From Escherichia coli (GTDB taxonomy: Bacteria; Pseudomonadota; Gammaproteobacteria; Enterobacterales; Enterobacteriaceae): a stretch of DNA of 64,000 bases. This document shows, piece after piece, positions 16,300 through 52,966 of this stretch. Made by a program: the position numbers and the translations under genes. The notes below the pieces were generated by a model that saw only the letters and a list, made by a program, of their open reading frames with translations, did not search any database and was not told the origin of the DNA. Position 1 is the first letter of the stretch, and the number at the start of each line of letters is the position of its first letter. The stretch lies in assembly GCF_024502345.1 (NCBI RefSeq), contig NZ_JALDNN010000001.1. The stretch is one strand, 5' to 3'.

Positions 16300-16575
16300 G
16301 TGGCTTCTGTTTCTATCAGCTGTCCCTCCTGTTCAGCTACTGACGGGGTGGTGCGTAACGGCAAAAGCACCGCCGGACATCAGCGCTATCTCTGCTCTCA
16401 CTGCCGTAAAACATGGCAACTGCAGTTCACTTACACCGCTTCTCAACCCGGTACGCACCAGAAAATCATTGATATGGCCATGAATGGCGTTGGATGCCGG
16501 GCAACCGCCCGCATTATGGGCGTTGGCCTCAACACGATTTTCCGCCATTTAAAAAACTCAGGCCGCAGTCGGTAA
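16300..16575 (+). CDS. insA: IS1 InsA (transposition inhibitor / N-terminal part of transposase)
   Basis: 91-aa [46 protein letters not shown]... Confidence 0.9.
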
Positions 16576-16997
16576 CCTCGCGCATACAGCCGGGCAGTGA
16601 CGTCATCGTCTGCGCGGAAATGGACGAACAGTGGGGATACGTCGGGGCTAAATCGCGCCAGCGCTGGCTGTTTTACGCGTATGACAGGCTCCGGAAGACG
16701 GTTGTTGCGCACGTATTCGGTGAACGCACTATGGCGACGCTGGGGCGTCTTATGAGCCTGCTGTCACCCTTTGACGTGGTGATATGGATGACGGATGGCT
16801 GGCCGCTGTATGAATCCCGCCTGAAGGGAAAGCTGCACGTAATCAGCAAGCGATATACGCAGCGAATTGAGCGGCATAACCTGAATCTGAGGCAGCACCT
16901 GGCACGGCTGGGACGGAAGTCGCTGTCGTTCTCAAAATCGGTGGAGCTGCATGACAAAGTCATCGGGCATTATCTGAACATAAAACACTATCAATAA
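16494..16997 (+). CDS. insB: IS1 InsB frame (expressed as the InsAB' fusion)
   Basis: 167-aa ORF in the -1 frame relative to insA, inside IS1. Confidence 0.9.
16551..16557 (+). promoter_or_regulatory. IS1 programmed -1 ribosomal frameshift motif (AAAAAAC) generating the InsAB' transposase
   Basis: A6C heptamer at the insA/insB overlap. Confidence 0.75.
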
Positions 16998-17352
16998 GTT
17001 GGAGTCATTACCTTGCGTAAGATAGATGAGACAAACTGAGACGCATAATGGTTTGCAAGGCTCTAATACTTTGATGTTGAGGATGTGATGGGGCATGTAC
17101 GGGGCATAGTACAATGATGTCCATGCTGGTGTAGATAATCTCCAGGCTTATCCGGTGCGCCGTAAAACCCCGTCCTTCAGGGCAGGGATATAAGGCGTGG
17201 TTTTCCACCTAACCAGGTGTTTGCTGTTGTTCAATGTATTGGCGGATGACGGATATTGGCGCACCTCCGCAGCTACTGGCAAAATAGCCAGCACTCCACA
17301 AAACGCCTTTGTAGTAATACCTGACTGCAATATCTGGTCGATCTCGTCGCAG

Positions 17353-17640
17353 TCACCTACCCGATACGCCTTTGAGGCTGTTTACCAGACTGGATATCGC
17401 CAGTTTGGGAGGATAGTTAATTAACAAATGGACGTGATCTGGTTCGCCATCCATTTCAACCAGTTCAGCTTCAAAATCAGCACATACATTTGAAAAGTAA
17501 GTGCGTAGTTTTTCTGTCGCGTCATGGTCAAAAATCTGACGTCGGTATCTGGTGACAAAGACCAGGTGAACATGCATCAGGAAAACACAATGCCTTCCAC
17601 GCCGGATATCGGTTTCTTTTTTCACAGACCAAAGTATCAT
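17353..17640 (-). pseudogene. tnpA: IS200/IS605-family transposase TnpA, C-terminally truncated (HuH motif present, catalytic Tyr region missing)
   Basis: 95-aa ORF with the HuH motif HVHLL; IS200-type TnpA normally continues for about 50 more residues including the catalytic tyrosine. Confidence 0.6.
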
Positions 17641-17647
17641 TTGGCCT

Positions 17648-18856
17648 GTGAAACGACTACAAGCATTTAAATTCCAGTTAAGACCCGGTGGTCAACAGGA
17701 GCGTGAAATGAGGCGCTTCGCAGGCGCATGTCGTTTCGTTTTCAATCGTGCTCTGGCACGTCAGAATGAGAATCATGAGGCCGGTAATAAATACATCCCT
17801 TACGGGAAAATGGCTTCCTGGCTGGTTGAGTGGAAAAATGCCACTGAAACGCAATGGCTTAAAGATGCCCCGTCACAGCCATTGCAACAGTCACTGAAAG
17901 ACCTTGAGCGGGCTTACAAAAACTTCTTCCAGAATCGGGCTGCTTTTCCCCGATTCAAAAAGCGGGGACAGAATGATGTATTCCGCTACCCGCAGGGCGT
18001 TAAGCTCGATCAGGAAAACAGCCGTATTTTTCTGCCGAAACTGGGCTGGATGCGCTACCGGAACAGCCGTCAGGTCACGGGTGTTGTGAAAAATGTCACT
18101 GTCAGCCAGTCCTGCGGTAAGTGGTACATCAGTATTCAGACAGAAAGTGAAGTATCAACTCCGGTTCACCCTTCAGCATCAATGGTCGGGCTGGATGCTG
18201 GCGTGGCTAAACTCGCCACGCTGTCAGATGGCACAGTCTTTGAGCCTGTAAACAGTTTTCAGAAAAACCAGAAGAAGCTGGCGAGACTTCAGCGACAGTT
18301 AAGCCGCAAGGTCAAATTCAGCAACAACTGGCAGAAGCAGAAACGCAAAATACAGCGACTGCATTCCTGTATCGCAAATATCCGCAGGGACTACCTTCAC
18401 AAAGTCACAACGACCGTCAGCAAAAACCACGCAATGATAGTCATTGAGGATTTGAAGGTCAGCAACATGTCAAAGTCAGCAGCGGGTACGGTCAGCCAGC
18501 CGGGGCGCAATGTCCGGGCAAAATCAGGTTTAAACCGTTCGATACTGGATCAGGGCTGGTATGAAATGCGCCGCCAGCTTGAGTACAAGCAGCTCTGGCG
18601 TGGCGGTCAGGTGCTTGCTGTTCCGCCAGCGTACACAAGCCAGCGTTGCGCGTGCTGTGGTCATACAGCGAAAGAAAACCGCCTGTCACAAAGTAAATTC
18701 AGATGCCAGGTATGTGGATATACAGCGAACGCCGATGTAAATGGCGCTCGTAACATTTTAGCGGCGGGGCACGCCGTTCTTGCCTGTGGAGAGATGGTGC
18801 AGTCAGGCCGCCCGTTGAAGCAGGAACCCACCGAAATGATTCAGGCGACAGCCTGA
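17648..18856 (+). CDS. tnpB: IS200/IS605-family TnpB (OrfB): RuvC-like nuclease with C-terminal zinc finger, RNA-guided nuclease family
   Basis: 402-aa ORF; RuvC motifs (GLDAGV..., IVIEDLKV) and CxxC...CxxC zinc finger (CACCGH...CQVCGY); divergent from tnpA. Confidence 0.85.
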
Positions 18857-25833: not shown

Positions 25834-27846
25834 ATGGCACAAGTCATTAATACCAACAGCCTCTCGCTGATCACTCAAAATAATATCAACAAGAACCAGT
25901 CTGCGCTGTCGAGTTCTATCGAGCGTCTGTCTTCTGGCTTGCGTATTAACAGCGCGAAGGATGACGCCGCAGGTCAGGCGATTGCTAACCGTTTTACTTC
26001 TAACATTAAAGGCCTGACTCAGGCTGCACGTAACGCCAACGACGGTATTTCTGTTGCGCAGACCACCGAAGGCGCGCTGTCCGAAATCAACAACAACTTA
26101 CAGCGTATTCGTGAACTGACGGTTCAGGCGACGACCGGAACTAACTCCACCTCTGATCTGGACTCCATTCAGGACGAAATCAAATCCCGTCTTGATGAAA
26201 TTGACCGCGTATCCGGCCAAACCCAGTTCAACGGCGTGAACGTACTGTCAAAAGATGGCTCGATGAAAATTCAGGTCGGCGCGAACGATGGCGAAACGAT
26301 TACTATTGATCTGAAGAAAATTGACTCTGATACGCTGAATCTGGCTGGTTTTAACGTTAACGGTAAAGGTTCTGTAGCGAATACAGCTGCGACAAGCGAC
26401 GATTTAAAACTGGCTGGTTTCACTAAGGGCACCACAGATACCAATGGCGTGACCGCGTATACAAACACAATTAGTAATGACAAAGCCAAAGCTTCCGATC
26501 TGTTAGCTAATATCACCGATGGATCAGTGATCACTGGGGGAGGGGCAAACGCTTTTGGCGTGGCTGCAAAGAATGGTTACACCTATGATGCAGCAAGTAA
26601 ATCTTATAGTTTTGCTGCAGATGGTGCCGATTCAGCGAAGACGTTAAGCATCATTAATCCAAACACCGGTGATTCGTCGCAGGCGACAGTGACTATTGGT
26701 GGTAAAGAGCAGAAAGTTAATATTTCCCAGGATGGAAAAATTACTGCGGCAGATGATAATGCGACGCTGTATTTAGATAAACAGGGAAACTTGACAAAAA
26801 CGAATGCAGGTAACGATACCGCAGCGACTTGGGATGGTTTAATTTCCAACAGCGATTCTACCGGTGCGGTTCCAGTTGGGGTTGCAACTACAATTACAAT
26901 TACTTCTGGTACAGCTTCCGGAATGTCTGTTCAGTCCGCAGGAGCAGGAATTCAGACCTCAACAAATTCTCAGATTCTTGCAGGTGGTGCATTTGCGGCT
27001 AAGGTAAGTATTGAGGGAGGCGCTGCTACAGACATTTTGGTAGCAAGTAATGGAAACATAACAGCGGCTAATGGTAATGCACTTTATCTTGATGCGACTA
27101 CTGGTGGATTCACTACAACGGCTGGAGGAAATACAGCTGCTTCGTTAGATAATTTAATTGCTAACAGTAAGGATGCTACCTTAACCGTAACTTCAGGTAC
27201 CGGCCAGAACACTGTTTATAGCACAACAGGAAGTGGCGCTCAGTTCACCAGTTTAGCAAAAGTAGACACTGTCAATGTTACCAACGCACATGTCAGTGCC
27301 GAAGGTATGGCAAATCTGACAAAAAGCAATTTTACCATTGATATGGGCGGTACAGGTACAGTAACTTACACAGTTTCCAATGGGGAGGTGAAAGCTGCTG
27401 CAAATGCTGATGTTTATGTCGAAGATGGTGCACTTTCAGCCAATGCTACAAAAGATGTAACCTACTTTGAACAAAAAAATGGGGCTATTACCAACAGCAC
27501 CGGTGGTACCATCTATGAAACAGCTGATGGTAAGTTAACAACAGAAGCTACTACTGCATCCAGTTCCACCGCCGATCCCCTGAAAGCTCTGGACGAAGCG
27601 ATCAGCTCCATCGACAAATTCCGTTCTTCCCTGGGTGCGGTGCAGAACCGTCTGGATTCCGCAGTCACCAACCTGAATAACACCACTACCAACCTGTCCG
27701 AAGCGCAGTCCCGTATTCAGGACGCCGACTATGCGACCGAAGTGTCCAACATGTCGAAAGCGCAGATCATTCAGCAGGCCGGTAACTCCGTGCTGGCAAA
27801 AGCCAACCAGGTACCGCAGCAGGTTCTGTCTCTGCTGCAGGGTTAA
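25834..27846 (+). CDS. fliC: Flagellin FliC, long-variant (670 aa) with extended central variable domain
   Basis: Conserved N-terminus MAQVINTNSLSLITQNN... and C-terminus ...NQVPQQVLSLLQG; long Thr/Gly/Ala-rich central region. Confidence 0.95.
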   Translation: MAQVINTNSLSLITQNNINKNQSALSSSIERLSSGLRINSAKDDAAGQAIANRFTSNIKGLTQAARNANDGISVAQTTEGALSEINNNLQRIRELTVQATTGTNSTSDLDSIQDEIKSRLDEIDRVSGQTQFNGVNVLSKDGSMKIQVGANDGETITIDLKKIDSDTLNLAGFNVNGKGSVANTAATSDDLKLAGFTKGTTDTNGVTAYTNTISNDKAKASDLLANITDGSVITGGGANAFGVAAKNGYTYDAASKSYSFAADGADSAKTLSIINPNTGDSSQATVTIGGKEQKVNISQDGKITAADDNATLYLDKQGNLTKTNAGNDTAATWDGLISNSDSTGAVPVGVATTITITSGTASGMSVQSAGAGIQTSTNSQILAGGAFAAKVSIEGGAATDILVASNGNITAANGNALYLDATTGGFTTTAGGNTAASLDNLIANSKDATLTVTSGTGQNTVYSTTGSGAQFTSLAKVDTVNVTNAHVSAEGMANLTKSNFTIDMGGTGTVTYTVSNGEVKAAANADVYVEDGALSANATKDVTYFEQKNGAITNSTGGTIYETADGKLTTEATTASSSTADPLKALDEAISSIDKFRSSLGAVQNRLDSAVTNLNNTTTNLSEAQSRIQDADYATEVSNMSKAQIIQQAGNSVLAKANQVPQQVLSLLQG

Positions 27847-31475: not shown

Positions 31476-32144
31476 ATGCAAGAAAGTATACAACTGGTTA
31501 TTGATTCCTTGCCGTTCCTGCTGAAAGGGGCTGGGTATACGCTGCAACTCAGTATCGGCGGCATGTTTTTTGGCTTACTGCTCGGGTTTATTCTCGCGCT
31601 GATGCGCCTGTCGCCAATCTGGCCCGTGCGCTGGCTGGCGCGTTTTTATATCTCTATTTTTCGTGGTACGCCGCTCATCGCACAACTGTTTATGATCTAT
31701 TACGGCCTGCCGCAGTTTGGTATCGAATTAGATCCCATTCCGTCAGCAATGATTGGTCTGTCGCTCAACACTGCCGCCTATGCTGCCGAAACGCTGCGCG
31801 CCGCCATTTCTTCTATTGATAAAGGTCAGTGGGAAGCAGCTGCCAGTATTGGTATGACGCCATGGCAGACTATGCGTCGCGCGATTTTGCCACAGGCGGC
31901 GCGGGTGGCGTTGCCGCCGCTGTCGAACAGCTTTATCAGCCTGGTAAAGGATACGTCGCTGGCCGCGACAATCCAGGTGCCGGAGCTGTTCCGTCAAGCG
32001 CAGTTGATTACCTCGCGCACGCTGGAGGTGTTCACCATGTACCTGGCGGCTTCGCTCATCTACTGGATCATGGCGACAGTATTATCGACGTTGCAGAACC
32101 ATTTTGAGAATCAACTTAATCGCCAGGAGAGAGAACCAAAATGA
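31476..32144 (+). CDS. tcyL: Cystine ABC transporter permease TcyL (YecS)
   Basis: 222-aa polar-amino-acid ABC permease. Confidence 0.85.
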   Translation: MQESIQLVIDSLPFLLKGAGYTLQLSIGGMFFGLLLGFILALMRLSPIWPVRWLARFYISIFRGTPLIAQLFMIYYGLPQFGIELDPIPSAMIGLSLNTAAYAAETLRAAISSIDKGQWEAAASIGMTPWQTMRRAILPQAARVALPPLSNSFISLVKDTSLAATIQVPELFRQAQLITSRTLEVFTMYLAASLIYWIMATVLSTLQNHFENQLNRQEREPK

Positions 32145-32893
32145 GTGCCATTGAAGTTAAGAACCTGGTGAAAAAATTTCACGGTCAGACGGTGCTGCAC
32201 GGTATCGACCTTGAGGTAAAGCCTGGCGAAGTGGTGGCAATTATCGGTCCGAGTGGTTCCGGCAAAACCACGTTGCTACGTAGCATAAATCTGCTGGAAC
32301 AACCGGAAGCGGGAACGATCACCGTTGGCGATATCACTATTGATACTGCACGTTCATTAAGTCAGCAAAAATCGCTGATTCGCCAGTTGCGTCAGCACGT
32401 CGGGTTTGTCTTCCAGAACTTTAATTTGTTTCCGCATCGTACGGTGCTGGAAAACATTATTGAAGGGCCGGTGATCGTCAAAGGCGAACCGAAAGAAGAG
32501 GCCACGGCGCGCGCTCGCGAGCTGCTGGCGAAAGTTGGGCTGGCCGGTAAAGAAACCAGCTATCCACGTCGTTTGTCTGGCGGTCAACAGCAGCGTGTTG
32601 CGATTGCGCGTGCGCTGGCAATGCGTCCTGAGGTGATTTTGTTTGACGAGCCAACGTCAGCGCTGGATCCAGAGCTGGTGGGCGAAGTCCTGAACACAAT
32701 CCGCCAGCTGGCGCAGGAAAAGCGCACGATGGTGATTGTGACGCACGAAATGAGCTTTGCCCGGGATGTTGCGGACCGGGCGATTTTTATGGACCAGGGG
32801 CGGATAGTCGAGCAGGGGGCAGCAAAAGCGTTATTTGCCGATCCCCAGCAGCCTCGCACCCGACAGTTCCTCGAGAAGTTTCTGCTGCAATAA
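32141..32893 (+). CDS. tcyN: Cystine ABC transporter ATP-binding protein TcyN (YecC)
   Basis: Walker A GPSGSGKTT, ABC signature LSGGQQQRVAIARAL, Walker B ILFDEPTSALD. Confidence 0.9.
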   Translation: MSAIEVKNLVKKFHGQTVLHGIDLEVKPGEVVAIIGPSGSGKTTLLRSINLLEQPEAGTITVGDITIDTARSLSQQKSLIRQLRQHVGFVFQNFNLFPHRTVLENIIEGPVIVKGEPKEEATARARELLAKVGLAGKETSYPRRLSGGQQQRVAIARALAMRPEVILFDEPTSALDPELVGEVLNTIRQLAQEKRTMVIVTHEMSFARDVADRAIFMDQGRIVEQGAAKALFADPQQPRTRQFLEKFLLQ

Positions 32894-33088
32894 TAAGAAA
32901 AAATCAGCCCCGACGATTCACCTGTCGGGGCGGGACGCCATTTCAAGCGTGATAAAACTGCTTAACAAATCAGCATAACTCATTAATAACATAAGAGAAT
33001 GCGATGGCTTGCAAAAGTAATTCATTGCCTGAATAATATAAATTATATATAAATCTTATTTATGTGATAGTTTGAATTATCATTATAA

Positions 33089-33844
33089 ATGATACTCACT
33101 CTCAGGGGCGTTGCGGTTTACTATGCAGATACGGATTTTTTCAGCTGGCGTCGCACGATGCTGTTGCGTTTTCAGAGGATGGAGGCCGCAGAAGAGGTCT
33201 ACCATGAAATAGAGCTTCAGGCTCAGCAGCTGGAGTACGATTACTATTCGTTATGTGTTCGCCACCCGGTACCATTCACGCGACCTAAAGTGGCTTTCTA
33301 CACCAATTACCCTGAGTCGTGGGTTAGTTATTATCAGGCAAAAAATTTTCTCGCAATTGATCCTGTGCTGAACCCTGAAAACTTTAGTCAGGGCCATTTA
33401 ATGTGGAATGATGACTTATTCAGCGAAGCACAGCCATTATGGGAAGCCGCGCACGCACATGGTTTACGCCGCGGTGTCACTCAGTATTTAATGCTGCCAA
33501 ATCGGGCGCTGGGCTTTTTGTCCTTTTCCTGTTGCAGCACGCGCAAAATACCCATTCTTAGTGATGAACTGCAATTAAAAATGCAGTTACTGGTGCGCGA
33601 AAGTCTGATGGCTCTGATGCGCTTAAATGATGAAATAGTGATGACGCCAGAGATGAATTTCAGCAAGCGCGAAAAAGAAATTCTGAAATGGACGGCGGAA
33701 GGGAAGACATCAGCAGAGATAGCGATGATTTTGTCAATCTCTGAGAATACGGTCAATTTCCATCAGAAAAACATGCAGAAAAAAATCAATGCACCAAATA
33801 AGACCCAGGTGGCCTGTTACGCGGCCGCTACTGGCTTAATTTGA
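33089..33844 (+). CDS. sdiA: LuxR-type quorum-sensing regulator SdiA, with atypical N-terminus in this sequence
   Basis: Body matches SdiA as recalled (FFSWRRTMLLRFQRME...ACYAAATGLI); the canonical MQDKDFF start is not in frame here. Confidence 0.8.
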   Translation: MILTLRGVAVYYADTDFFSWRRTMLLRFQRMEAAEEVYHEIELQAQQLEYDYYSLCVRHPVPFTRPKVAFYTNYPESWVSYYQAKNFLAIDPVLNPENFSQGHLMWNDDLFSEAQPLWEAAHAHGLRRGVTQYLMLPNRALGFLSFSCCSTRKIPILSDELQLKMQLLVRESLMALMRLNDEIVMTPEMNFSKREKEILKWTAEGKTSAEIAMILSISENTVNFHQKNMQKKINAPNKTQVACYAAATGLI

Positions 33845-33910: not shown

Positions 33911-34135
33911 TTACTGACGGTAGGCTTGTTTAATTTGCTTAACCGTTTTGGAAAATACTGCAGCCTGGGTTTCGTCTTCGATCAGCGCAAGCTGTTTTTC
34001 CATCTTTAACATCACGCGGCCCGCGTCAGCTTGTCCCATCGCCTGCAGCATCAGCGTCAGCATCGCTTTCAGGCAGGAGACTTCATTTGCCAGTTCTTGA
34101 TTATTCTCGGCAGTAGAAAAATCAGGCGTACTCAT
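33911..34135 (-). CDS. yecF: Small protein YecF (DUF2594)
   Basis: 74-aa ORF; conserved neighbour of sdiA. Confidence 0.75.
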
Positions 34136-34471
34136 TTATTTTCCTCGTCATGTTGCAATGAAAATTTGCGGTGAAAAATGTTAAGGCGGCGGAGTATACC
34201 ATAAGCTTTGCTAAAAATAGCAGTGGTTGTTTTTTGAGCGTGATATCGGCAGTGCTATAAAATACGTTAATATAATGACCAATAAATATTTTTATCATGA
34301 ATGTTTTTTGCCCGTATTGTTCGGGTTAATTAATGTTACATATTCAGCGGGCTGATTTTCATTTTTGCTGAATAAAGTCAATTTTTGTCACATTTCATCG
34401 CCGGGCTTACTGTGAAACGATCCCGGAAGCCGTTGGTGACGGGCGTGACCATAACTGTGGACAATCGAATT

Positions 34472-35528
34472 GGCTTTGTTGAATAAATCAGATTTCGGGT
34501 AAGTCTCCCCCGTAGCGGGTTGTGTTTTCAGGCAATACGCACGCTTTCAGGCATACCTGCTTTCGTCATTTTGTTCAGCGCTCGTACCAGGGCCATAGCC
34601 TCTGCAACCTGACCATCGTAGTCACGCAGTGTCAGTGAACCCCCGAACAGCTGTTTTACCCGGTACATCGCCGTTTCCGCTATCGAGCGACGGTTGTAAT
34701 CTGTTGTCCATTTCCACCGCGCATTACTCCCGGTCATTCGCTGATTAGCCACTGCACGGTTACGGTCTGCATATTCACCGGGCCAGTAACCCGCACCTTT
34801 TCGGGGAGGGATAAGCGCGCTGATTTTCTTACGCCGCAGTTCATCGTGACATAGCCGGGTATCGTAAGCGCCATCGGCGGCGGCTGACCTGATTTTCCGG
34901 TGGGTTTGCCGGATTAACCCGGGGAAGGCCTCTGAGTCCGTAACGTTGTTCAGCGACAGGTCAGCGCAGATGATTTCATGTGTTTTACTGTCAACGGCGA
35001 GATGCAGCTTACGCCAGATACGGCGGCGTTCCTGGCCATGCTTTTTGACTTTCCACTCGCCTTCACCGAAGACCTTCAGCCCGGTGGAATCAATTACCAG
35101 GTGTGCGATTTCACCCCGGGTGGGCGTTTTGAAACTGACATTAACCGACTTTGCCCGCCTGCTGACACAGCTGTAATCCGGGCAGCGTAGCGGAACGTTC
35201 ATCAGAGAAAAAATGGAATCAATAAAGCCCTGCGCAGCGCGCAGGGTCAGCCTGAATACGCGTTTAATGACCAGCACAGTCGTGATGGCAAGGTCAGAAT
35301 AGCGCTGAGGTCTGCCTCGTGAAGAAGGTGTTGCTGACTCATACCAGGCCTGAATAGCTTCATCATCCAGCCAGAAAGTTATGGAGCCACGGTTGATGAG
35401 GGCTTTATTGTAGGTGGGCCAGTTGGTGATTTTGAACTTTTGCTTTGCCACGGAACGGTCTGCGTTGTCGGGAAGATACGTGATCTGATCCTTCAACTCA
35501 GCAAAAGTTCGATTTATTCAACAAAGCC
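34472..35528 (-). mobile_element. IS903-type (IS5 family) insertion sequence, complete 1057 bp, flanked by 9-bp target-site duplication AATCGAATT
   Basis: Terminal inverted repeats GGCTTTGTTGAATAAATC at both ends; identical 9-mers at 34463-34471 and 35529-35537. Confidence 0.9.
34528..35496 (-). CDS. IS903-type DDE transposase
   Basis: ORF MKDQITYLPDNADRSVAKQKFKITNWPTYNKALINRGS... inside the IS. Confidence 0.9.
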   Translation of the reverse strand: MKDQITYLPDNADRSVAKQKFKITNWPTYNKALINRGSITFWLDDEAIQAWYESATPSSRGRPQRYSDLAITTVLVIKRVFRLTLRAAQGFIDSIFSLMNVPLRCPDYSCVSRRAKSVNVSFKTPTRGEIAHLVIDSTGLKVFGEGEWKVKKHGQERRRIWRKLHLAVDSKTHEIICADLSLNNVTDSEAFPGLIRQTHRKIRSAAADGAYDTRLCHDELRRKKISALIPPRKGAGYWPGEYADRNRAVANQRMTGSNARWKWTTDYNRRSIAETAMYRVKQLFGGSLTLRDYDGQVAEAMALVRALNKMTKAGMPESVRIA

Positions 35529-35659
35529 AATCGAATTTACAAAAACGAGAGAAAAATCGAATACCCACCATTTTTAACGTTTCAAAGTTGCAATAAAAAC
35601 CGCTAATATACGAATGACTAACTATCAGTAGCGTTATCCCTATTTCTGGAGATATTCCT

Positions 35660-40236: not shown

Positions 40237-41484
40237 ATGATATCAATCAGATACATGAGGATAAATATGCAAAAATCCTTCCGATTCACCAATTCATCCA
40301 TCAAAGCCCTTCCGGCAAACACAGATACCCGATCTACAGAGCTTGAGGTATCAGATACCGAGGTCATAGGCCTCAAATGTCTCTCAGGTCGAACGGGTAA
40401 CAAACGTTTCCTCCTGCGCTACACATTCCACGGTACCAAAAAAAGTATCAGTATTGGCAGATTCCCTGAAATCGATGTGGGGACAGCCCGTCAGATAGCT
40501 CGCCGTCATAAGGAGGCGATTGCACTTGGAAATGACCCCAAGGCAGAGCGCGATAATTATCGTGCGATGCCAACGCTTAGTGAGTTTTTTCACCTGACCT
40601 ATGTTCCGTTCATCAAGCGCCATAAAAAGTCCTGGGATAAGGATGTTCAGCGTTTCACGCAATACATTGAACCTCGTCTGGGGAAGATACGTTACTGCGA
40701 TCTCAGGGCCAGAGAGATACAACAGGTGCTGTTTGACATGCTGGAGGGGCGTATTCACGGGCAGCAATATGCGCCGTCTACCTGTAACAGAGCCCTTGCT
40801 ATTCTGAAAACGATGGGGCGTTATGCGTTGCGACAGGATGTGCTGGAAAAGAATGAAGCCGATAAGATCCCTTTACTGAAAGAGAATAATCAGCGGACGC
40901 GCTTTTTTGATGCTGATGAGATCAGGCGCATTCTTGACGCTGCTACCCAATATCCCAACAAAGCTGCCGGGGGATTGATAGCCATGTTGTTGTTAACCGG
41001 TACACGCAAATCAGAAATGCTTAATGTCAGGCATGAACATATCGACCGGGCCAATCGTACTCTGTTCATTCCTTATACAAAAAATGGTCGCAGTCGGACG
41101 GTATATCTAAGCGATGCAGCATTATCGATTATTGATGCTATCCCACGAGTTGGCAGTAATCCGTATCTGTTCGCCATTAAGGATAATGGAAAACCGATAT
41201 CGGAACCCCGATGGGCATATGAAAAAATACTGGCACAGTGCGGTATAGACAAGAATGAAGTCTGTTTTCACACCACACGTCATTCTGTTGCCTCTTTACT
41301 GGTTTCGAGTGGTCAATTCAGCCTGTATGACGTTAAAGCACAACTGGCGCATGCCAGTATTCAAAGTACGGAGCGCTACGCGAAATTGACACCAGAGCGT
41401 ATGCGTCAGACCGGGCAGGGCGTAACTGACCTTCTTTTGAACACCGTTACTGCCGGTAACAATGATGATTTTAGCACCCCTTGA
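40237..41484 (+). CDS. int: P4-type tyrosine recombinase / integrase (probable start MQKSFRFTNSSIKALP at about 40267)
   Basis: C-terminal catalytic region with HTTRHSVASLL and LAHASIQSTERYAKL; immediately next to a tRNA gene. Confidence 0.85.
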   Translation: MISIRYMRINMQKSFRFTNSSIKALPANTDTRSTELEVSDTEVIGLKCLSGRTGNKRFLLRYTFHGTKKSISIGRFPEIDVGTARQIARRHKEAIALGNDPKAERDNYRAMPTLSEFFHLTYVPFIKRHKKSWDKDVQRFTQYIEPRLGKIRYCDLRAREIQQVLFDMLEGRIHGQQYAPSTCNRALAILKTMGRYALRQDVLEKNEADKIPLLKENNQRTRFFDADEIRRILDAATQYPNKAAGGLIAMLLLTGTRKSEMLNVRHEHIDRANRTLFIPYTKNGRSRTVYLSDAALSIIDAIPRVGSNPYLFAIKDNGKPISEPRWAYEKILAQCGIDKNEVCFHTTRHSVASLLVSSGQFSLYDVKAQLAHASIQSTERYAKLTPERMRQTGQGVTDLLLNTVTAGNNDDFSTP

Positions 41485-46429: not shown

Positions 46430-49093
46430 TCAGACTGGAAGACAGAATGTCGGATATTTACGGGCTATGATATCCATCAGTGACTTCATTCGCGGTGTTA
46501 CAGAACTAAATTTCATTTGGGGTATTTTTGCTCTTACCGCATTTTTTACATCAGTCACCGTTACTGAATAGCCTTCTGACGTCAGCCATTCAGCAACCTC
46601 TTTACAGGAATAACTTTTTTTATCTTTCAGCATCAGCCCCCATTGGCACTGAGTCAGCGCCCGGAGAAATAGTCTGACTAAAATATCATCACTACGTTTG
46701 CTTCCGACTTTTAGTTTCATATCAGAAAACACCGTCCGGCAATAGAGAAAATCACACCAGTCATCCCAGTCAGCCAGGGTCTTCAGTGTATGCGTTTGCC
46801 GCCAGTCGTCGAAAAGGGAGCGCTGCTGCAGAGCCTCTTCCATATTATCCCATGGGCGGGAAAACATCAGTAAATGCCCTTCATTCATGGCGGGCTGTAC
46901 GGGCTGGCGTTTGAAATCGAATTCCAGATTAAGACGGATATCCTGTTCCCGGGATACCAGATCGCTTTCCGACAGCCACATCTCACGCGTTGATATCAAC
47001 GTACTTCGGGATAAAGTCTGACCGGGTAAACGATTAAGGTAAAGATCTACCATATAGTCGTTATAGTCACTGCGTGGAATATCGGCAGGAGGTTTGACGC
47101 CAGCCCTGGCATGAACAACAGGTTTTCCCTGAATAGCTCTATAGGTTAACTGCCCCCGGGTTTTCATGGCGATAAGCTGGCTGACTTCATGCTTACATGT
47201 CAACATTGATGAACCCGGATCAACAATATCGCACAGCGACTGGAAGCGGGAAGACAGTGGACCGCTCATGTTTATCTTGTTAAGTGGGCAATTTGTCAAA
47301 AAGCCATCGGTTGTGACGCTGACAACCGATGAATCAGAAGGCAAAGCATTCATGAGTTCCCCGGCAACGGCGCGGATAAATCCCGTTACATGCGCAGCAA
47401 AGAATGGCTGAGTAACCGATGATGGTGGGAGGGATCTGTTTAATCCACGGGCAGTATCAAAGGCGGTTTTGGCGCGAAGGCCCTGAGCAAGTTTGCCATA
47501 AAGCGAGTTGCCAATTTCTTTCCAGAATTTCTCCTCCAGAGAACCTTTAATATGGCGATTACGGTTCTCACGGACCTGTTGAACAAAGGGAAGAAACACC
47601 GATGTTGATTCGCTGTTATGTGGGGAGGTGTCACAGATCCAGGGGACGATGATCCCATTATGGATCGTCATCTCTGCCCCGAGCGACAGAGCAAGTTCGA
47701 TTTCAGGTGCCGTTGCCCATGATTCGCCACTTAATGGAAAGAATAACCCATATTGATCGGTCCGAACCGGCAGGCTGGGATAGGGAACTGATTCCGGGAA
47801 CCGAAATGTGACAAGCGCAAATCCCATTACATGCCCACAGTAATCGTCCGGATTTTTACTGAGGCGGATGTTCCCGTAATCGGGTGTGAGGATATCTAAT
47901 AGCCCGGTGGTATACGCTCCAGCCAGATCGTAGTCATACCAGTGATCAGACGGTGTAACCCCCATCATAAAACACTCATTGCGTCCGCCGTGGTAACAGT
48001 TGATCGGGAACGTTTCAAACAACTCTCTTGAAGGAACACTGGCGGGGTTTTTAATCGTCCGGAATGCCTGTTTCTCCGTGAGCCAGAGTTCACGGGTTTT
48101 AATGTGTGTCCCAAGGCAGACTTCAGGAGACATATTGTTTTCTTTAAGTGTTTTGGTGAACCGTGAAACTGCCATCGCCCCGATGGTGGCGGGGACACGA
48201 TCAATCATCAGCTCCCGGGCGCAAAAATTGCGAACCTGTAAAGCATAACGAACCGCAATCTCGGCATCCCGCAGAGCATAGGCTTCAAACCCTGCTCTGT
48301 CGCCCAGAAGATATTCACGCATATTGGTTATGGAATAAGGTGCAGGAATGGTGAGTTTGGGAAGACCCAGTAATTCACCACATTCAGCCAGACCCATACC
48401 CCCGGGAGTGATAAGCAGTGTATCGATGAAAGCTACGTTACTGCAACGCGGAGGGGAAGTTCGTTTGTCAAACATTATCTGTTCAGTCTTTACGCGACGT
48501 TCCTGCTGTTCATCAAAATCGATACCGTAACGATTTTTGAAGCTGCTGACAGTACCGCGTATTCCTTTCAGAAGAATTTTGTAGTCTGACCAGAAATTGG
48601 CAAAGGAGGCGATATCCGCACGAATGAAATGCGCATATATATTAATAATACCGGGCCATTTTGTAATCACACCCGTTTCAAGAAGCGGTGTAATCGTTTG
48701 ACAGAGAAATTCCTTAAAAGACAGCCGGGATTTTTTCTGTGAGTCAGGTGGATAGATAATGTTCGATATACCTGTATTATCGGGTAAGATAACATAACTC
48801 TGATATGACAGAATATCATTCTGTCGTGTTTCAGGGTTGAAAACATATTCGGTATCAAAACCGATATGGAGTGTCAGGTCACTTGAAATAACAGATACTT
48901 TTTTTGATGCAGGTGGTATCACAGGATAATCATCAAGCGTTTTAGGTCTTTTACGATTGAGCGCTGGCTCTGAAGTCACGGACTGATACCCCGAGGCGGC
49001 AGCGAGGATGTCCTGCAAATTATTGCTCATAGTTAACTCCGAAAAAATGCCGGGAGCTGTGTCCCGGCATAAAGAATCAGGATTTAATAACAT
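46430..49093 (-). CDS. Family B DNA polymerase of the primer-independent (piPolB) type, pipolin hallmark gene
   Basis: 887-aa ORF; Exo I FDTE; motif B KEIGNSLYGK; motif C-like VTTDGF; KTRG in place of the canonical KxY motif (IAMKTRGQLTY). Confidence 0.8.
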   Translation of the reverse strand: MLLNPDSLCRDTAPGIFSELTMSNNLQDILAAASGYQSVTSEPALNRKRPKTLDDYPVIPPASKKVSVISSDLTLHIGFDTEYVFNPETRQNDILSYQSYVILPDNTGISNIIYPPDSQKKSRLSFKEFLCQTITPLLETGVITKWPGIINIYAHFIRADIASFANFWSDYKILLKGIRGTVSSFKNRYGIDFDEQQERRVKTEQIMFDKRTSPPRCSNVAFIDTLLITPGGMGLAECGELLGLPKLTIPAPYSITNMREYLLGDRAGFEAYALRDAEIAVRYALQVRNFCARELMIDRVPATIGAMAVSRFTKTLKENNMSPEVCLGTHIKTRELWLTEKQAFRTIKNPASVPSRELFETFPINCYHGGRNECFMMGVTPSDHWYDYDLAGAYTTGLLDILTPDYGNIRLSKNPDDYCGHVMGFALVTFRFPESVPYPSLPVRTDQYGLFFPLSGESWATAPEIELALSLGAEMTIHNGIIVPWICDTSPHNSESTSVFLPFVQQVRENRNRHIKGSLEEKFWKEIGNSLYGKLAQGLRAKTAFDTARGLNRSLPPSSVTQPFFAAHVTGFIRAVAGELMNALPSDSSVVSVTTDGFLTNCPLNKINMSGPLSSRFQSLCDIVDPGSSMLTCKHEVSQLIAMKTRGQLTYRAIQGKPVVHARAGVKPPADIPRSDYNDYMVDLYLNRLPGQTLSRSTLISTREMWLSESDLVSREQDIRLNLEFDFKRQPVQPAMNEGHLLMFSRPWDNMEEALQQRSLFDDWRQTHTLKTLADWDDWCDFLYCRTVFSDMKLKVGSKRSDDILVRLFLRALTQCQWGLMLKDKKSYSCKEVAEWLTSEGYSVTVTDVKNAVRAKIPQMKFSSVTPRMKSLMDIIARKYPTFCLPV

Positions 49094-49715
49094 TTACTAC
49101 AGATTTGAAAATATCGGTTTTGTGTGATTCATCATCTACATGGATAAAGGAAACGAGTTTCCTGCCTGCTTTAATCAGGATACCGCGTTGCGTCTTTTCC
49201 ACAGACGGGGTAACGTGTGCAGATAACAGACAATGTTCATGTAAATGAAGAAACTTTTTTGAGGCGTAGCCGCCATGTAATCGGGCTTGAATGTCAAGAT
49301 ACATATCATCAAGAGAACCGGGTTCTCCTGATTCACTCAATACCGGATAACCCTTCTTATCAAAGAGGTTAAGGATAGATTTACTATCATGTTCGAACAG
49401 GGTAACACCGTAAATGTATTTCATTCGAAAGGTGAGGGAATCGGTGGTGTAGACCTCCTCCTGACGATTGAAATTTTTGAGACGCCTGGCTAATTCATTA
49501 AAAACAGCACGAGCAGTAGCCGTGTCCTGCAGGGTGTAGGTATAAAGTACGAAGCCATCTGTGCCGATGAGCTTTACTAAGTTGTCCATAATCGTGATAG
49601 CGAGAACTAATGCAAAGGACAGATATTTTTCATCGTTGTCTACAGCTGTGTTTGCTGCTTCAGGAAGAATGTTCAGTGCATTATTAGCATTATTTGCTGT
49701 GTTCTTAGTAACCAT
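49077..49715 (-). CDS. Hypothetical protein, overlapping and probably translationally coupled to piPolB
   Basis: 212-aa ORF; stop overlaps the piPolB start; start overlaps the alpA-like stop. Confidence 0.5.
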   Translation of the reverse strand: MVTKNTANNANNALNILPEAANTAVDNDEKYLSFALVLAITIMDNLVKLIGTDGFVLYTYTLQDTATARAVFNELARRLKNFNRQEEVYTTDSLTFRMKYIYGVTLFEHDSKSILNLFDKKGYPVLSESGEPGSLDDMYLDIQARLHGGYASKKFLHLHEHCLLSAHVTPSVEKTQRGILIKAGRKLVSFIHVDDESHKTDIFKSVVNVIKS

Positions 49716-49905
49716 TTATATCACCTTTAAGTTTGTTTTGACGATGTGCATTTTCCCACTCAACAATATCATCAAGAGAGAATCGTATAGCCCGCCCAAT
49801 TCTGATGAAGGGCGGGAGTTTTCCTGGGTTGCGCGATATATCTGACGCAACCGTGGATGCGGAAAGATTAAATCTTTCTGCAAACTGCTTAATGGTTAAA
49901 TACAT
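49705..49905 (-). CDS. AlpA-family HTH protein (excisionase / transcriptional regulator)
   Basis: 66-aa ORF, MYLTIKQFAERFNLSASTV...; typical partner of integrases in islands. Confidence 0.65.
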   Translation of the reverse strand: MYLTIKQFAERFNLSASTVASDISRNPGKLPPFIRIGRAIRFSLDDIVEWENAHRQNKLKGDINGY

Positions 49906-50055
49906 AAACCTCCGGTTTTAGAGAAGAAGAAACCACGCGGATTTAATATCAATCCACATTCTTTGATGACTTAATGCAGGGCCCTGCAGAAGCATGCAAT
50001 GACAATACCGTCCTTAAACGAGTGTTGCATCAATCACGAATCACAGATCATAGGT

Positions 50056-51186
50056 TCATTTTTTCGTGTCATAACTTTCTATGACCTGAGAAACCACTGC
50101 GTGCGATGTCGCTGCATTGTGAAAAGCGTAGCGACGGGTCGCCGTGAGTGAATGGTGATTTAGCAGATGGGAAGCGATTGCAATATCCCCGGTCGCCTGT
50201 AGTACCCGGGTGGCAAAGGTACGGCGCAGGTCATGCATCCGCAGGTTATCAATGTTGGCATCCCGACAAATACGGGCAAAGGTTGCACGCGGATATGCCA
50301 GAGGGCGGGCATTGTCGGTTAGTTGTGGAAAAATGTAAGTTTTGCTGAGCATCAGGTCTTGCTGGCACTGGACAACTGCAATGGCTGGAGGTGCAAGTGG
50401 GCAGGTGAAAGGGTGTCCGGACTTTGTATCAGGCAGTATGAGTTGATGCATATCCGGGTGCCAGTACTCCCATTTCAGGGTACATACCTCACCAATACGC
50501 ATCCCCGTATAAAGAGCAAGCAATATAGAATCAGCTGCCGGTGTTTGCAGCGCTGTTGCCGCGTCAATAAAGCGCGGGATTTCTGTCGCTGATAGTGTGC
50601 GATAGCGAATGTTATTTTCTTTCAGATAGCGGACATGTGACATCGGGGAATGTGTGATCCATCCAGCACGTACTGCCAGAGAGCATATTTTGGACAATAT
50701 TGCGAGGATACGGTTTACTGTTGACGGACGTAATTTTTCCCGTAAGCCAGCAGCATATTGTTCTAGTTCCCCTGCCGTGATGTCGCGAAGTTGCCGCTTG
50801 CCCCAGAACGGGCGAACGTAGAGGTTGAGTTTTGACAACTCTGACTGAGGACTCTTTTTATACAACTGCAAATCCGGTAGCCACAGGTCATTGATGGCCT
50901 GTTCCACAGTGAATCGACGGGACTGAACCGCAAGACGATTTTTATCAGCAAGCAGTTTCATCACATGCTGACGGGCATCCTCAACGCAGAGCTGAGGGAA
51001 CTGACCCAGGGTTTCATATATACGCTGATTGTTTATAGTGGCACGAAAGGCCAGCGTGATCCGATTGGGATACACCAGAGCACGCAGGTTTTGGCAGTGA
51101 ATATCACGGTATTCCTGACAACCCGTGAGGGGATGTGGAAGTTGGTGAAGTGATTTGTTGCTGAAACGCAGATCCAGAATAGGCAT
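50056..51186 (-). CDS. Second tyrosine recombinase (XerC/D-like integrase)
   Basis: C-terminal catalytic motifs HDLRRTFATR, LLNHH, TATRRYAF. Confidence 0.8.
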   Translation of the reverse strand: MPILDLRFSNKSLHQLPHPLTGCQEYRDIHCQNLRALVYPNRITLAFRATINNQRIYETLGQFPQLCVEDARQHVMKLLADKNRLAVQSRRFTVEQAINDLWLPDLQLYKKSPQSELSKLNLYVRPFWGKRQLRDITAGELEQYAAGLREKLRPSTVNRILAILSKICSLAVRAGWITHSPMSHVRYLKENNIRYRTLSATEIPRFIDAATALQTPAADSILLALYTGMRIGEVCTLKWEYWHPDMHQLILPDTKSGHPFTCPLAPPAIAVVQCQQDLMLSKTYIFPQLTDNARPLAYPRATFARICRDANIDNLRMHDLRRTFATRVLQATGDIAIASHLLNHHSLTATRRYAFHNAATSHAVVSQVIESYDTKK

Positions 51187-51329
51187 CGTATTTCTCCTGT
51201 AAATGACACTGGAAAAATACGATGTGAGGTTATAGTCTGCCAGTTACAGCTTTCACAGTTCATCAGGTGAAAAAACGCAGATTCGGATATAATGGCAACA
51301 CAATTCCATGTCGCCATTATATTAAGAAA

Positions 51330-52460
51330 CTACAGTTTCATGATCTTGTTCGCTATTTTTTCGAAGTAAACCTCATTCTTAAGAAGAGTGATATTGTTTG
51401 TTTGAACACCCAGACCACTGGAGGTTGACTGGAAGTTGAGTGAACCACTTATCACTGTGGACTTTCCTGATAAAAATGAAATCAACTCCTTGGAAGATGG
51501 TGCCCACTCAGGGTTTAAGAGTAATGCAATATAGATATATGTCTTACGAAGCAATTGTTCTATATCTTTTTTATGCCCTGTAGTGTTTTGCTTACCTTTA
51601 ATGCAAATAGATTTGATTATGAACTCATCAGGGCTGGTTAAAGGCGTTTTAAACTCACTCAGTGATCCATCGTTATGAATGACTTCATAAGGCAGCATAG
51701 ATAAAATGATCAATGCAATCATTTTAGGATGATAAAGGTAGTTATCACGAATGATTTTTCCTGCCTTCATTGTATTGAGCGTTGTTTGAATAAATACAAA
51801 AAGATATTCAGAGCAAAAGTAACAAAACACAAGCCAGGATAGGTCAATGGATGGAATGTTAATATCCTTAGGTAGTTTGTTTAGCCAGTATTCAGACTTC
51901 AAAAAGGTCCTGATTTCAACAGTATATTCATGCATTTTTGCGCTGAAATCAAGCATTGCTACTTGACCTGATTGTTCCGTAACTGTGTGGTCTATAAATG
52001 TTAGTGTATTGCACATTTTATCCAGCGTGTTTTGAAAACAAGAAAGGAGTTCGGCATTATTATTACCATTAACCGCAGATGAAAGTTCAGTTTTAATAAA
52101 TGCATCCAGTAGCATACAGATTTCTTTCGGAATGACATTTTTACGGGATTGCTGTGAATAGAAATGTACTGCCAGTAAATTAAAGGCAGTGCACTCCTTT
52201 TTTAACCATTGTTCGAGCACTGGGACGTGCTGAAAAAAATTGATATGCTTAGCAGTAGATGCTGATGGAGATAGTACATGAAGAATATCTACAGCAGGCT
52301 TCATTTGCAATATTTGATCGGATTCGGTAGTCGTCATTAGTTCCAGTAATTGCTGTTCAGAAAATAGTTTAGACAGGTGATCAATGTCTTTTTGGTATTG
52401 ATTAAGTTTTGTTAAATTCCCCGGTATACGGGTTACATTGTTTTTCATTTTCTCGAACAT
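51330..52460 (-). CDS. Hypothetical protein (AT-rich gene, no recognisable motifs)
   Basis: 376-aa ORF, Lys/Asn/Ile-rich; long uninterrupted frame in a strongly AT-rich stretch. Confidence 0.5.
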   Translation of the reverse strand: MFEKMKNNVTRIPGNLTKLNQYQKDIDHLSKLFSEQQLLELMTTTESDQILQMKPAVDILHVLSPSASTAKHINFFQHVPVLEQWLKKECTAFNLLAVHFYSQQSRKNVIPKEICMLLDAFIKTELSSAVNGNNNAELLSCFQNTLDKMCNTLTFIDHTVTEQSGQVAMLDFSAKMHEYTVEIRTFLKSEYWLNKLPKDINIPSIDLSWLVFCYFCSEYLFVFIQTTLNTMKAGKIIRDNYLYHPKMIALIILSMLPYEVIHNDGSLSEFKTPLTSPDEFIIKSICIKGKQNTTGHKKDIEQLLRKTYIYIALLLNPEWAPSSKELISFLSGKSTVISGSLNFQSTSSGLGVQTNNITLLKNEVYFEKIANKIMKL

Positions 52461-52966
52461 AATTTTATCCTCGTTTGAATTATTACACTGATTTAAAAAG
52501 TAGCATGTCGTGTTAGCGAGGTAATCCTAAAACGTGAATGGCAGCAGGGGCAAGCTTGAATCTGCGTAAGGATATGGCTTGAATTTAATGGTGTAATCAG
52601 TGAGTTAGAGGCTTATAGCCATTTAAATACAATAAGTTATGATAATATATGGCGGGTGTAAATCGGTTAGTTTTTATGGTTAAAATATGAGCATTGTGAG
52701 ATTTGAGATATGATGGTTTTTAAATTACATACAAGTTACCCCTGATGATCAGTATTAATACCAGAATGATACATGCGAGCAGCACCCAATCCTGTACTAT
52801 TTATGATGGCTATACAAGGCTGAAACTTTGAGTCGTATGTTGCCAGGAGGATTAATGTCCACAAGGCCCAGATAGAATGATTTCTCAGATATTAAAGTTG
52901 AAACTTATTAACTATGTGAGAGGCTGATATTTATTCAGTCTCTCATTTGTTTTTATCGTTTTAAAG

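What the first reader, a model, noticed from the sequence alone, without database searches (positions are those of the whole stretch)
33089..33165. sdiA 5' end: canonical start codon appears out of frame
The body of SdiA is intact from ...DFFSWRRTMLLRFQRME onward, but the expected ATG (33123-33125, sequence ATGCAGATACGG) is in a different frame from the rest of the gene. The only in-frame ATGs are an upstream one at 33089 with no obvious Shine-Dalgarno in AT-rich sequence, giving MILTLRGVAVYYADTDFF..., and an internal one at about 33155, giving MLLRFQ.... This suggests a small indel near codons 2-4 relative to the reference allele as I recall it, which may reduce or alter SdiA production.
Basis: partly seen in the sequence, partly recalled or inferred. 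Interest (0 to 1): 0.4.

Follow-up and report, generated by a model that had tools for sequence, protein, structure and literature searches.

The report
Inherited one-base frameshift in sdiA
This E. coli strain belongs to a natural lineage that has lost one G at the second or third codon of the quorum-sensing receptor gene sdiA, so the normal start codon now yields only a 29-residue peptide and full-length SdiA could only come from a weak upstream start; this is an ordinary natural loss or weakening of a known gene, not a sequencing error.

Summary
Compared with intact E. coli sdiA alleles that are otherwise identical here, the window lacks one G of ATGCAGGAT (window 33128/33129). The canonical ATG (33123) therefore reads a 29-codon out-of-frame ORF ending at 33212. 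The SdiA body (from D3 onward) is in frame with ATG 33089, which lies in the 5' leader.

It is not an assembly error. The same 251-aa product is in NCBI as WP_060659236.1, and the deletion is present in all three fetched loci from other samples. A sister allele is indexed in 72 blocks of the public collection. None of 5,426 complete RefSeq E. coli genomes carries the deletion.

The canonical ATG keeps its SD-like AGGGG. ATG 33089 has no SD and is paired in a predicted weak AU-rich hairpin. It does lie downstream of the published sigma-70 promoter of sdiA, so it should be on the mRNA.

The 251-aa form would keep helix 1 and the invariant F6, F7, W9 and R10 behind a leader predicted to be disordered. 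Restarts at Met13 or Met20 would not.

Most likely result: SdiA strongly reduced, possibly abolished. The deletion also removes one GGA triplet in the early coding region, where CsrA binds. In this strain only, IS903B sits 123 bp upstream of uvrY. Interest is low.

The parts
33009..33037 (+). sdiA sigma-70 promoter TTGCAA-17-AATAAT. The inferred transcription start is near 33044, so ATG 33089 lies on the mRNA.
   Evidence: The consensus scan finds it. The same hexamers and spacing are listed for sdiA among constitutive RpoD promoters by Shimada et al. 2014, PMC3946193.
33089..33091 (+). Leader ATG. In intact alleles it opens a 39-codon out-of-frame upstream ORF. Here it is in frame with the SdiA body.
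   Evidence: There is no SD (anti-SD duplex +0.4 kcal/mol), the 30 nt upstream are 83% A/U, and the ATG is paired in a predicted AU-rich hairpin at 33056-33092.
33104..33108 (+). SD-like AGGGG that serves the canonical ATG. It is unchanged in this allele.
   Evidence: Anti-SD duplex -6.3 kcal/mol. The sequence is identical in intact alleles.
33123..33212 (+). The canonical sdiA start codon, now heading a 29-codon out-of-frame ORF (MQIRIFSAGVARCCCVFRGWRPQKRSTMK, then a stop).
   Evidence: The annotated sdiA start in L001-L004 corresponds to this ATG.
33128..33129 (+). Site of the 1-bp deletion: one G of the GG in CAGGAT is lost, at the codon 2/3 boundary. This also destroys the first GGA triplet of the coding region.
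33089..33844 (+). The 251-aa ORF. It encodes SdiA residues D3-I240 behind a new 13-residue N-terminus, MILTLRGVAVYYA, which replaces MQ.
   Evidence: NCBIfam SdiA equivalog NF007561, 485.8 bits against a cutoff of 350, covering profile positions 3-240. The exact sequence is WP_060659236.1. The AlphaFold2 model gives residues 1-14 a pLDDT below 50 and places helix 1 at 17-30.
33158..33160 (+). Internal in-frame ATG, Met13 of normal SdiA, which lies in the middle of helix 1.
   Evidence: A product from here would lack the invariant F6, F7, W9 and R10.
33179..33181 (+). Internal in-frame ATG, Met20 of normal SdiA. GAGG lies directly against it, with zero spacing.
33530..33545 (+). Two lineage-specific amino-acid changes, R137C at 33530 and E142K at 33545 (normal numbering). 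Both lie in a variable loop.
   Evidence: Neither change is found in any complete RefSeq E. coli genome.
34463..35537 (-). IS903B (34472-35528, 1057 bp) with a 9-bp target duplication AATCGAATT (34463-71 and 35529-37). It lies between yecU and uvrY and ends 123 bp before the uvrY start at 35660. This is context, not part of the frameshift.
   Evidence: It is absent from L006, which is otherwise 100% identical.

Best explanation
A genuine, inherited 1-bp deletion (one G of the GG at codon 2/3) marks the sdiA allele of a natural E. coli lineage.

Shown: the canonical ATG 33123 and its SD-like AGGGG are intact but now lead into a 29-codon out-of-frame ORF. The SdiA body from D3 onward has no further indels or stop codons, and it is in frame only with the leader ATG 33089 and the internal ATGs 33158 and 33179.

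Inferred: most ribosomes still start at 33123 and make the short peptide. Full-length SdiA can only come from SD-less initiation at 33089, on transcripts from the TTGCAA-17-AATAAT promoter. SdiA output is therefore strongly reduced, making the allele a hypomorph or near-null. The 251-aa protein named by the annotation pipeline is a start-site rescue on paper, not evidence of normal expression.

The deletion also removes one of the GGA triplets in the early coding region, where CsrA binds.
For: Deletion: the alignment shows a single missing G. Zero of 5,426 complete genomes carry it, while 4,821 match the restored probe.

Real allele: the deletion is present in all three fetched loci from other samples. 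L006 is 100% identical to the window over 5.4 kb. L007 has 29 SNPs in that span, all in flanking genes. L008 has one synonymous change. The sister allele (C137/E142, 251 aa) is indexed in 72 blocks of the collection, and the two fetched examples differ from the window at 3-4 sites in 7.8 kb.

Initiation signals: the anti-SD duplex is -6.3 kcal/mol for ATG 33123 and +0.4 for ATG 33089, and ATG 33089 is paired in a predicted hairpin. Reading the sequence, no ATG, GTG or TTG lies in the SdiA frame between the SD and 33158.

Canonical start: the canonical Met is present in 34 of 35 SdiA sequences from many genera. F6, F7, W9 and R10 are invariant. Helix 1 is residues 6-19 of the normal protein. 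Its N-terminal end forms part of the LBD-LBD dimer interface (PMC4453555). Met13 and Met20 products should therefore be defective.

Promoter. CsrA sites in the coding region: PMC7652899.
Against: The ORF downstream of the deletion is completely intact in every carrier seen. By itself that is also expected for a young pseudogene.

R137C and E142K lie in a variable loop, and Cys occurs at that position in a Citrobacter sequence (P0030), so there is no sign of decay.

In other genera an ATG 11 codons upstream is naturally in frame with sdiA, so a 251-aa form is not implausible.

The canonical SD is itself weak and distant, with an SD-to-start distance of 10's measure. The advantage of 33123 over 33089 may therefore be smaller than the duplex energies suggest.

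No expression data were available.
Confidence: 0.66

Rival explanations
1. Functional start-codon switch. The 251-aa protein is made from ATG 33089 at physiologically useful levels and works as SdiA. Its start lies at least 37 nt upstream of the CsrA sites, so it may escape CsrA repression. On this reading the allele rewires translational control rather than losing function.
For: The 251-aa ORF keeps every residue from D3 onward, including helix 1 and the invariant FFxWR, and the new 13-14 residues are predicted to be disordered. ATG 33089 lies downstream of the mapped sigma-70 promoter, in 83% A/U sequence. Four other SdiA clusters have an in-frame ATG 11 codons upstream. The allele is widespread and its ORF is intact in all carriers. 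NCBI annotates it as SdiA.
Against: There is no SD, and the ATG is paired in a predicted hairpin. The intact canonical site should capture most ribosomes. The N-terminal end of helix 1 is part of the dimer interface, so a hydrophobic extension there could interfere. ORF intactness is uninformative over a short time span. In those other genera the canonical Met is also in frame, so the long forms may only reflect gene-caller choices.
Confidence: 0.24
2. Sequencing or assembly error in this genome at a short G run, with the real gene intact.
For: The site is a GG dinucleotide. Error-rich assemblies with frameshifted sdiA do exist; P0024 has several shifts.
Against: The identical allele is found in independent assemblies and sequencing runs, including an assembly 100% identical over 5.4 kb. 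A sister allele is indexed in 72 blocks. The carriers share other rare markers, C137 and K142, that are absent from all complete genomes.
Confidence: 0.02
3. Frame restoration during expression. Either -1 ribosomal slippage or insertion of one extra U by RNA polymerase at the T6 run (33136-33141), just downstream of the deletion, would give a 240-aa MQIRIFFSWRR... protein.
For: A run of six T lies 7 nt after the deletion. A -1 shift of tRNA-Phe on UUU would re-enter the SdiA frame (sequence reading).
Against: The 0-frame codons are AUU UUU UCA, so there is no X XXY YYZ heptamer. No stimulatory structure was identified. From general knowledge, six U is short for efficient transcriptional slippage. 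The product would also carry D3I, T4R and D5I.
Confidence: 0.03
4. Internal initiation at Met13 (33158) or Met20 (33179) yields an N-terminally truncated but active SdiA.
For: Both ATGs are in frame. GAGG precedes 33179. Gene callers produce 228-aa SdiA forms in some other taxa.
Against: The SD-like sequence at 33179 has zero spacing, and 33158 has only -2.2 kcal/mol. These products would lack half or all of helix 1 and the invariant F6, F7, W9 and R10. They would also lack the helix 1 dimer contact.
Confidence: 0.03

Closest known systems
SdiA of E. coli K-12 and EHEC (orphan LuxR-type AHL receptor, 240 aa; PDB 4Y13, 4LFU, 2AVX)
   Same: Same locus and synteny (tcyN-sdiA-yecF-yecU-uvrY). Residues 3-240 match the NCBIfam equivalog profile across positions 3-240. 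The promoter is the same.
   Different: One G is missing at codon 2/3, so the canonical start is out of frame. The only full-length ORF uses a leader ATG and has a 13-residue replacement N-terminus. The lineage also carries R137C and E142K.
Other natural sdiA-disrupted E. coli: IS1A inside sdiA in NZ_CP059283.1, and IS903B inside sdiA in NZ_CP160108.1
   Same: All are natural alleles in which normal SdiA cannot be made.
   Different: Those are insertions that split the gene and are annotated as pseudogenes. This one is a point frameshift that leaves a complete alternative ORF, and it is annotated as an ordinary protein.
CsrA-repressed sdiA mRNA (Yakhnin et al. 2011, as summarised in PMC7652899)
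   Same: The GGA triplets in the early coding region lie where CsrA is reported to bind, overlapping the ribosome-binding segment.
   Different: The first GGA (CAGGAU) is destroyed here. The exact mapped site boundaries could not be checked because the primary paper is not held.
SdiA gene models in other Enterobacteriaceae with an in-frame ATG 11 codons upstream (clusters P0025, P0068, P0109, P0134)
   Same: They are 251 aa long, with an 11-residue leader before the conserved xDFFxWRR segment. MIIIVRG... resembles MILTLRG....
   Different: In those taxa the canonical Met is retained in frame at position 12. Here it is replaced by Tyr, because the canonical ATG is read in another frame.

Membership tests
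SdiA (NCBIfam NF007561 equivalog; LuxR-type AHL receptor) | Whole-protein score above the curated equivalog cutoff | tested here: met
   485.8 bits against a cutoff of 350, for the 251-aa ORF
SdiA (NCBIfam NF007561 equivalog; LuxR-type AHL receptor) | Autoinducer-binding domain plus a GerE/LuxR-type helix-turn-helix domain | tested here: met
   PF03472 and PF00196 on the product. The model shows an alpha-beta-alpha LBD followed by a four-helix DBD.
SdiA (NCBIfam NF007561 equivalog; LuxR-type AHL receptor) | Conserved genomic position between tcyN (yecC) and yecF/uvrY | tested here: met
SdiA (NCBIfam NF007561 equivalog; LuxR-type AHL receptor) | Canonical start codon in frame, giving a protein of about 240 aa that begins M-x-D/E-x-D/E-F-F | tested here: not met
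   A 1-bp deletion follows codon 2. The canonical Met is present in the other 34 of 35 aligned sequences.
SdiA (NCBIfam NF007561 equivalog; LuxR-type AHL receptor) | AHL-responsive transcriptional activity | not testable with these tools
   Requires reporter assays in a carrier strain
Frameshifted pseudogene | Reading frame disrupted relative to intact orthologues | tested here: met
Frameshifted pseudogene | Further decay, such as extra indels, stop codons or changes at conserved residues | tested here: not met
   The ORF is intact in all carriers, and R137C and E142K lie in a variable loop
Frameshifted pseudogene | Loss of the protein product | not testable with these tools
   No proteomic or ribosome-profiling data were available
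Programmed -1 ribosomal frameshift site | Slippery heptamer X XXY YYZ in the incoming frame | tested here: not met
   The 0-frame codons over the T6 run are AUU UUU UCA (sequence reading)
CsrA translational repression target | Two GGA-containing sites within or near the ribosome-binding segment | tested here: inconclusive
   The first GGA (+5) is lost, while GGA at +11 and about +56 are retained. The mapped site boundaries were not available.
IS903B (IS5 family) insertion (neighbouring feature) | An element of about 1057 bp encoding an IS903B transposase and flanked by a 9-bp target duplication | tested here: met
   The element spans 34472-35528, with AATCGAATT on both sides. It is 99+% identical to annotated IS903B copies.

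The most novel reading that the evidence does not exclude
The deletion turns a normally out-of-frame leader ATG into the only productive start of sdiA. A full-length, N-terminally extended SdiA would then be made by SD-independent initiation upstream of the CsrA sites, and so outside CsrA control. That would be a natural start-codon migration that uncouples the AHL receptor from the Csr circuit. In this strain it would sit alongside an IS903B insertion that cuts uvrY off from its upstream regulatory region. The intact versions seen on the same rare C137/K142 background could then reflect repair of the frameshift by recombination, under selection to keep SdiA.
Probability: 0.12. Interest if true: 0.5.

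Novelty: new member of a known kind. Interest (0 to 1): 0.2.

Why it matters
SdiA is the only AHL receptor of E. coli. It feeds into acid resistance, motility, biofilm formation and the BarA/UvrY-Csr circuit. A natural lineage that has largely lost it, while databases label the product as ordinary SdiA, matters in two ways.

First, strains of this lineage should respond weakly or not at all to AHLs, and this can be predicted from the sequence.

Second, it is a caution for annotation. Start-site extension by pipelines can hide a frameshift at the very 5' end of a gene.

Beyond that it is one more example of regulator loss in natural E. coli.

Tried and rejected
- Shigella origin, suspected from the neighbouring IS: rejected. 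The IS is IS903B, and the exact protein is recorded only as E. coli.
- Assembly error: rejected on the basis of independent carriers.
- Relaxed selection inferred from R137C and E142K: rejected. Both lie in a variable loop.
- PDB constructs as evidence that N-terminal tags are tolerated: uninformative. The extra residues are C-terminal in 4Y13 and 4LFU.
- Order of events (deletion versus R137C versus E142K): attempted with exact-sequence look-ups and haplotypes. All combinations exist, which violates the four-gamete test. Frameshift-R/E and intact-C/K were found only in Logan/ENA assemblies with no NCBI record, several of them metagenome scaffolds. The pattern could therefore reflect chimeric assembly, real recombination or recurrent mutation. 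This is unresolved.
- Primary paper on CsrA and sdiA (PMC3209218): not held. From my own memory of its abstract, it reports four putative transcription starts within 85 nt of the start codon. I could not verify this here. If some of those starts lie downstream of 33089, only a subset of transcripts would carry the leader ATG.
- Record NZ_AP027775.1: not in the collection.
- Literature searches for this allele found nothing.
- The genome contigs and metagenome scans were not used because they were not needed.

Full report
**1. The observation**

Window 33089-33165 lies at the 5' end of sdiA (+ strand). The gene sits between tcyN (32141-32893) and yecF (33911-34135, - strand).

- The ATG at 33123 (ATGCAGATACGG) opens a frame that reads MQIRIFSAGVARCCCVFRGWRPQKRSTMK and stops at 33210-33212.
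- The SdiA body is in the frame of ATG 33089, giving a 251-aa ORF (33089-33844) that begins MILTLRGVAVYYADTDFFSWRR.
- That ORF scores 485.8 bits against the NCBIfam SdiA equivalog (cutoff 350) and matches profile positions 3-240.
- Aligned with four annotated E. coli loci whose sdiA starts at the corresponding ATG, the window differs in this stretch by exactly one base. One G of ATGCAGGATACGG is missing, at the codon 2/3 boundary.
The internal in-frame ATG is at 33158 (Met13), and a further in-frame ATG lies at 33179 (Met20).

**2. Real or artefact**

- A 40-nt probe centred on the deletion finds no match in 5,426 complete RefSeq E. coli genomes. The same probe with the G restored matches 4,821 of them.
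- The exact 251-aa product is nevertheless public. It is WP_060659236.1 (also KUG78092.1, KUG78686.1, MCQ7030240.1), named 'transcriptional regulator SdiA'.
- The collection lists the product on 8 contigs. All three fetched loci, each from a different sample, carry the deletion.
  - L006 (GCA_050022275.1) is 100% identical to the window over 5.4 kb.
  - L007 differs at 29 sites in that span, all in flanking genes.
  - L008 has one synonymous change.
- A sister allele with the deletion, C137 and E142 (P0017; NCBI isolate accessions such as EFG1540081.1) is indexed in 72 blocks of the collection. The two fetched examples differ from the window at only 3-4 sites in 7.8 kb.
- The deletion is therefore an inherited allele of a natural E. 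coli lineage, not a read or assembly error.

**3. Allele history**

Besides the deletion, the window allele differs from the closest intact allele (L001) within sdiA by R137C (33530), E142K (33545) and a synonymous site (33622). One further difference lies upstream in the tcyN-sdiA spacer, at 32972. No complete genome has C137 or K142.

Exact-sequence look-ups found these forms:

| Form | Status |
|---|---|
| Intact R/E | common, at least 1000 contigs |
| Intact C/E | includes isolate AP027775.1 |
| Intact C/K | Logan/ENA only |
| Frameshift R/E | Logan/ENA only |
| Frameshift C/E | 72 blocks |
| Frameshift C/K | the window |

- This violates the four-gamete test.
- The forms backed by NCBI records fit a simple path: R/E, then C/E, then the deletion, then K.
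- The two discordant forms (frameshift R/E and intact C/K) were found only in Logan or ENA assemblies. Several of these are metagenome scaffolds, and some are visibly mosaic. Chimeric assembly, real recombination and recurrent mutation all remain possible.
- L016 (intact C/E) has a strongly divergent upstream flank up to at least 33030 and a nearly identical downstream part. That is compatible with a recombination breakpoint near the start codon.
- R137 and E142 lie in a variable loop, and Cys occurs at that position in a Citrobacter sequence (P0030). The substitutions are therefore not evidence of decay.

**4. What the mutation does to expression**

- *Promoter.* TTGCAA-17-AATAAT at 33009-33037 is the constitutive RpoD promoter listed for sdiA by Shimada et al. 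2014 (PMC3946193). Transcripts from it should start near 33044 and contain ATG 33089.
- *Upstream ATG in intact alleles.* There it opens a 39-codon out-of-frame upstream ORF.
- *Initiation signals.* The canonical ATG keeps an SD-like AGGGG (anti-SD duplex -6.3 kcal/mol). ATG 33089 has none (+0.4), lies in 83% A/U sequence and is paired in a predicted weak hairpin at 33056-33092. ATG 33158 has -2.2. ATG 33179 has GAGG directly against it with no spacing.
- *No other start.* No ATG, GTG or TTG lies in the SdiA frame between the SD and 33158.
- *Inference.* Most initiation still occurs at 33123 and yields the 29-residue peptide. Full-length protein can arise only from inefficient initiation at 33089.

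**5. Would any product work**

- In an alignment of 35 SdiA sequences from many genera, the canonical Met is present in all but the window. F6, F7, W9 and R10 are invariant.
- An AlphaFold2 model of the 251-aa form (mean pLDDT 78.5) gives residues 1-14 a pLDDT below 50. It places helix 1 at residues 17-30, which is F6-R19 of the normal protein.
- Nguyen et al. [quoted passage not shown]
- The 251-aa form thus keeps all conserved residues behind a floppy leader, which sits next to a dimer contact. Products from Met13 or Met20 would lack half or all of helix 1 and are unlikely to function.
- Four SdiA clusters from other taxa have an ATG 11 codons upstream that is naturally in frame, for example MIIIVRGDIGQ-MWENDFF. 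An extended form is therefore not absurd. In those taxa, however, the canonical Met is also in frame, and the long models may only reflect gene-caller choices.

**6. Links to known regulation**

- The CsrA review PMC7652899 states that both CsrA sites of sdiA mRNA lie within the coding region. The upstream one overlaps the ribosome-binding segment (Yakhnin et al. 2011; the primary paper is not held).
- Intact alleles have GGA at +5 (CAGGAU) and +11 (ACGGAU). The deletion destroys the first.
- If SdiA is made from 33089, the CsrA sites lie at least 37 nt downstream of the start. This is an idea only.
- The same review notes that SdiA activates uvrY.
[quoted passage not shown] It is absent from the otherwise identical L006, so it is younger than the frameshift.
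- PMC6307784 describes an IS5 insertion 260 bp upstream of uvrY that abolishes the NhaR effect. It also shows that shorter uvrY promoter fragments lacking upstream H-NS sites are more active. A similar effect here is possible but untested.

**7. Rivals**

- Functional start switch: about 0.24.
- Sequencing error: about 0.02.
- Frame restoration at the T6 run, which has no X XXY YYZ heptamer in register: about 0.03.
- Active truncated products: about 0.03.

**8. Verdict**

The feature is a lineage-specific 5' frameshift allele of a well-known gene. It is already deposited and annotated as a 251-aa SdiA, but I found no paper describing it. It most likely reduces SdiA strongly. It is ordinary in kind, with modest interest for strain phenotype prediction and as an example of annotation masking a frameshift.

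Noticed in passing
window 34463-35537: [quoted passage not shown] It is absent from the otherwise 100% identical L006. A published IS5 insertion at -260 in this spacer alters uvrY regulation (PMC6307784).
   Followed up: partly
window 33089-33208 in intact alleles (L001 1695-1814): Intact E. coli alleles carry a 39-codon upstream ORF (MILTLRGVAVYYAGYGFFQLASHDAVAFSEDGGRRRGLP) that starts 34 nt before sdiA and overlaps its start out of frame. In four SdiA clusters from other taxa the equivalent ATG is 33 nt upstream and in frame (P0025, P0068, P0109, P0134). Whether it is ever translated is unknown.
   Followed up: partly
L003 (NZ_CP059283.1) and L005 (NZ_CP160108.1): Other natural E. coli strains have sdiA split by IS1A or by IS903B, so sdiA disruption recurs in nature. 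In addition, 51 of 5,426 complete genomes gave no match to the sdiA region.
   Followed up: partly
L009-L021 (sdiA sites 33128, 33481, 33530, 33545, 33622): All combinations of deletion or intact with R/C137 and E/K142 occur. Several contigs are mosaics. L016 (isolate AP027775.1) switches background between 33030 and 33545. The cause could be chimeric metagenome assembly, real recombination (possibly repairing the frameshift) or recurrent mutation. Unresolved.
   Followed up: partly
P0024 (NCBI, 4.59-Mb chromosome): A 251-aa 'SdiA' that begins in the upstream-ORF frame and changes frame several times (for example AIKITVLNPENF, and a scrambled C-terminus). It looks like an indel-rich assembly rather than a real allele.
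   Followed up: no
window 16494-18856: An IS1 transposase fragment (16494-16997) and a 402-aa IS200/IS605-family TnpB (17648-18856) lie between the flagellar genes and the yedE region.
   Followed up: no
window 25834-27846: fliC encodes an unusually long flagellin of 670 aa. The best 24-kb match among complete genomes was to O21:H9-type strains, at 98.5% identity.
   Followed up: no
window 40237-63932: An integrase-bearing island lies downstream of pgsA. It contains a tyrosine integrase (40237-41484) and a second tyrosine recombinase (50056-51186). It also holds a type I restriction-modification system (hsdM 54506-56029, hsdS 56019-57266, hsdR 57996-61283), with a UPF0149/SEC-C protein between hsdS and hsdR. 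After that come a YgjP-like metallopeptidase (61280-62035) and a GmrSD-type endonuclease (62061-63932).
   Followed up: partly
window 46430-54202: Four ORFs on the - strand (887, 212, 376 and 411 aa) have no Pfam hit. The 887-aa and 376-aa ORFs also have no NCBIfam hit; the other two were not scanned against NCBIfam. They lie next to the restriction-modification genes and may be uncharacterised island cargo.
   Followed up: no
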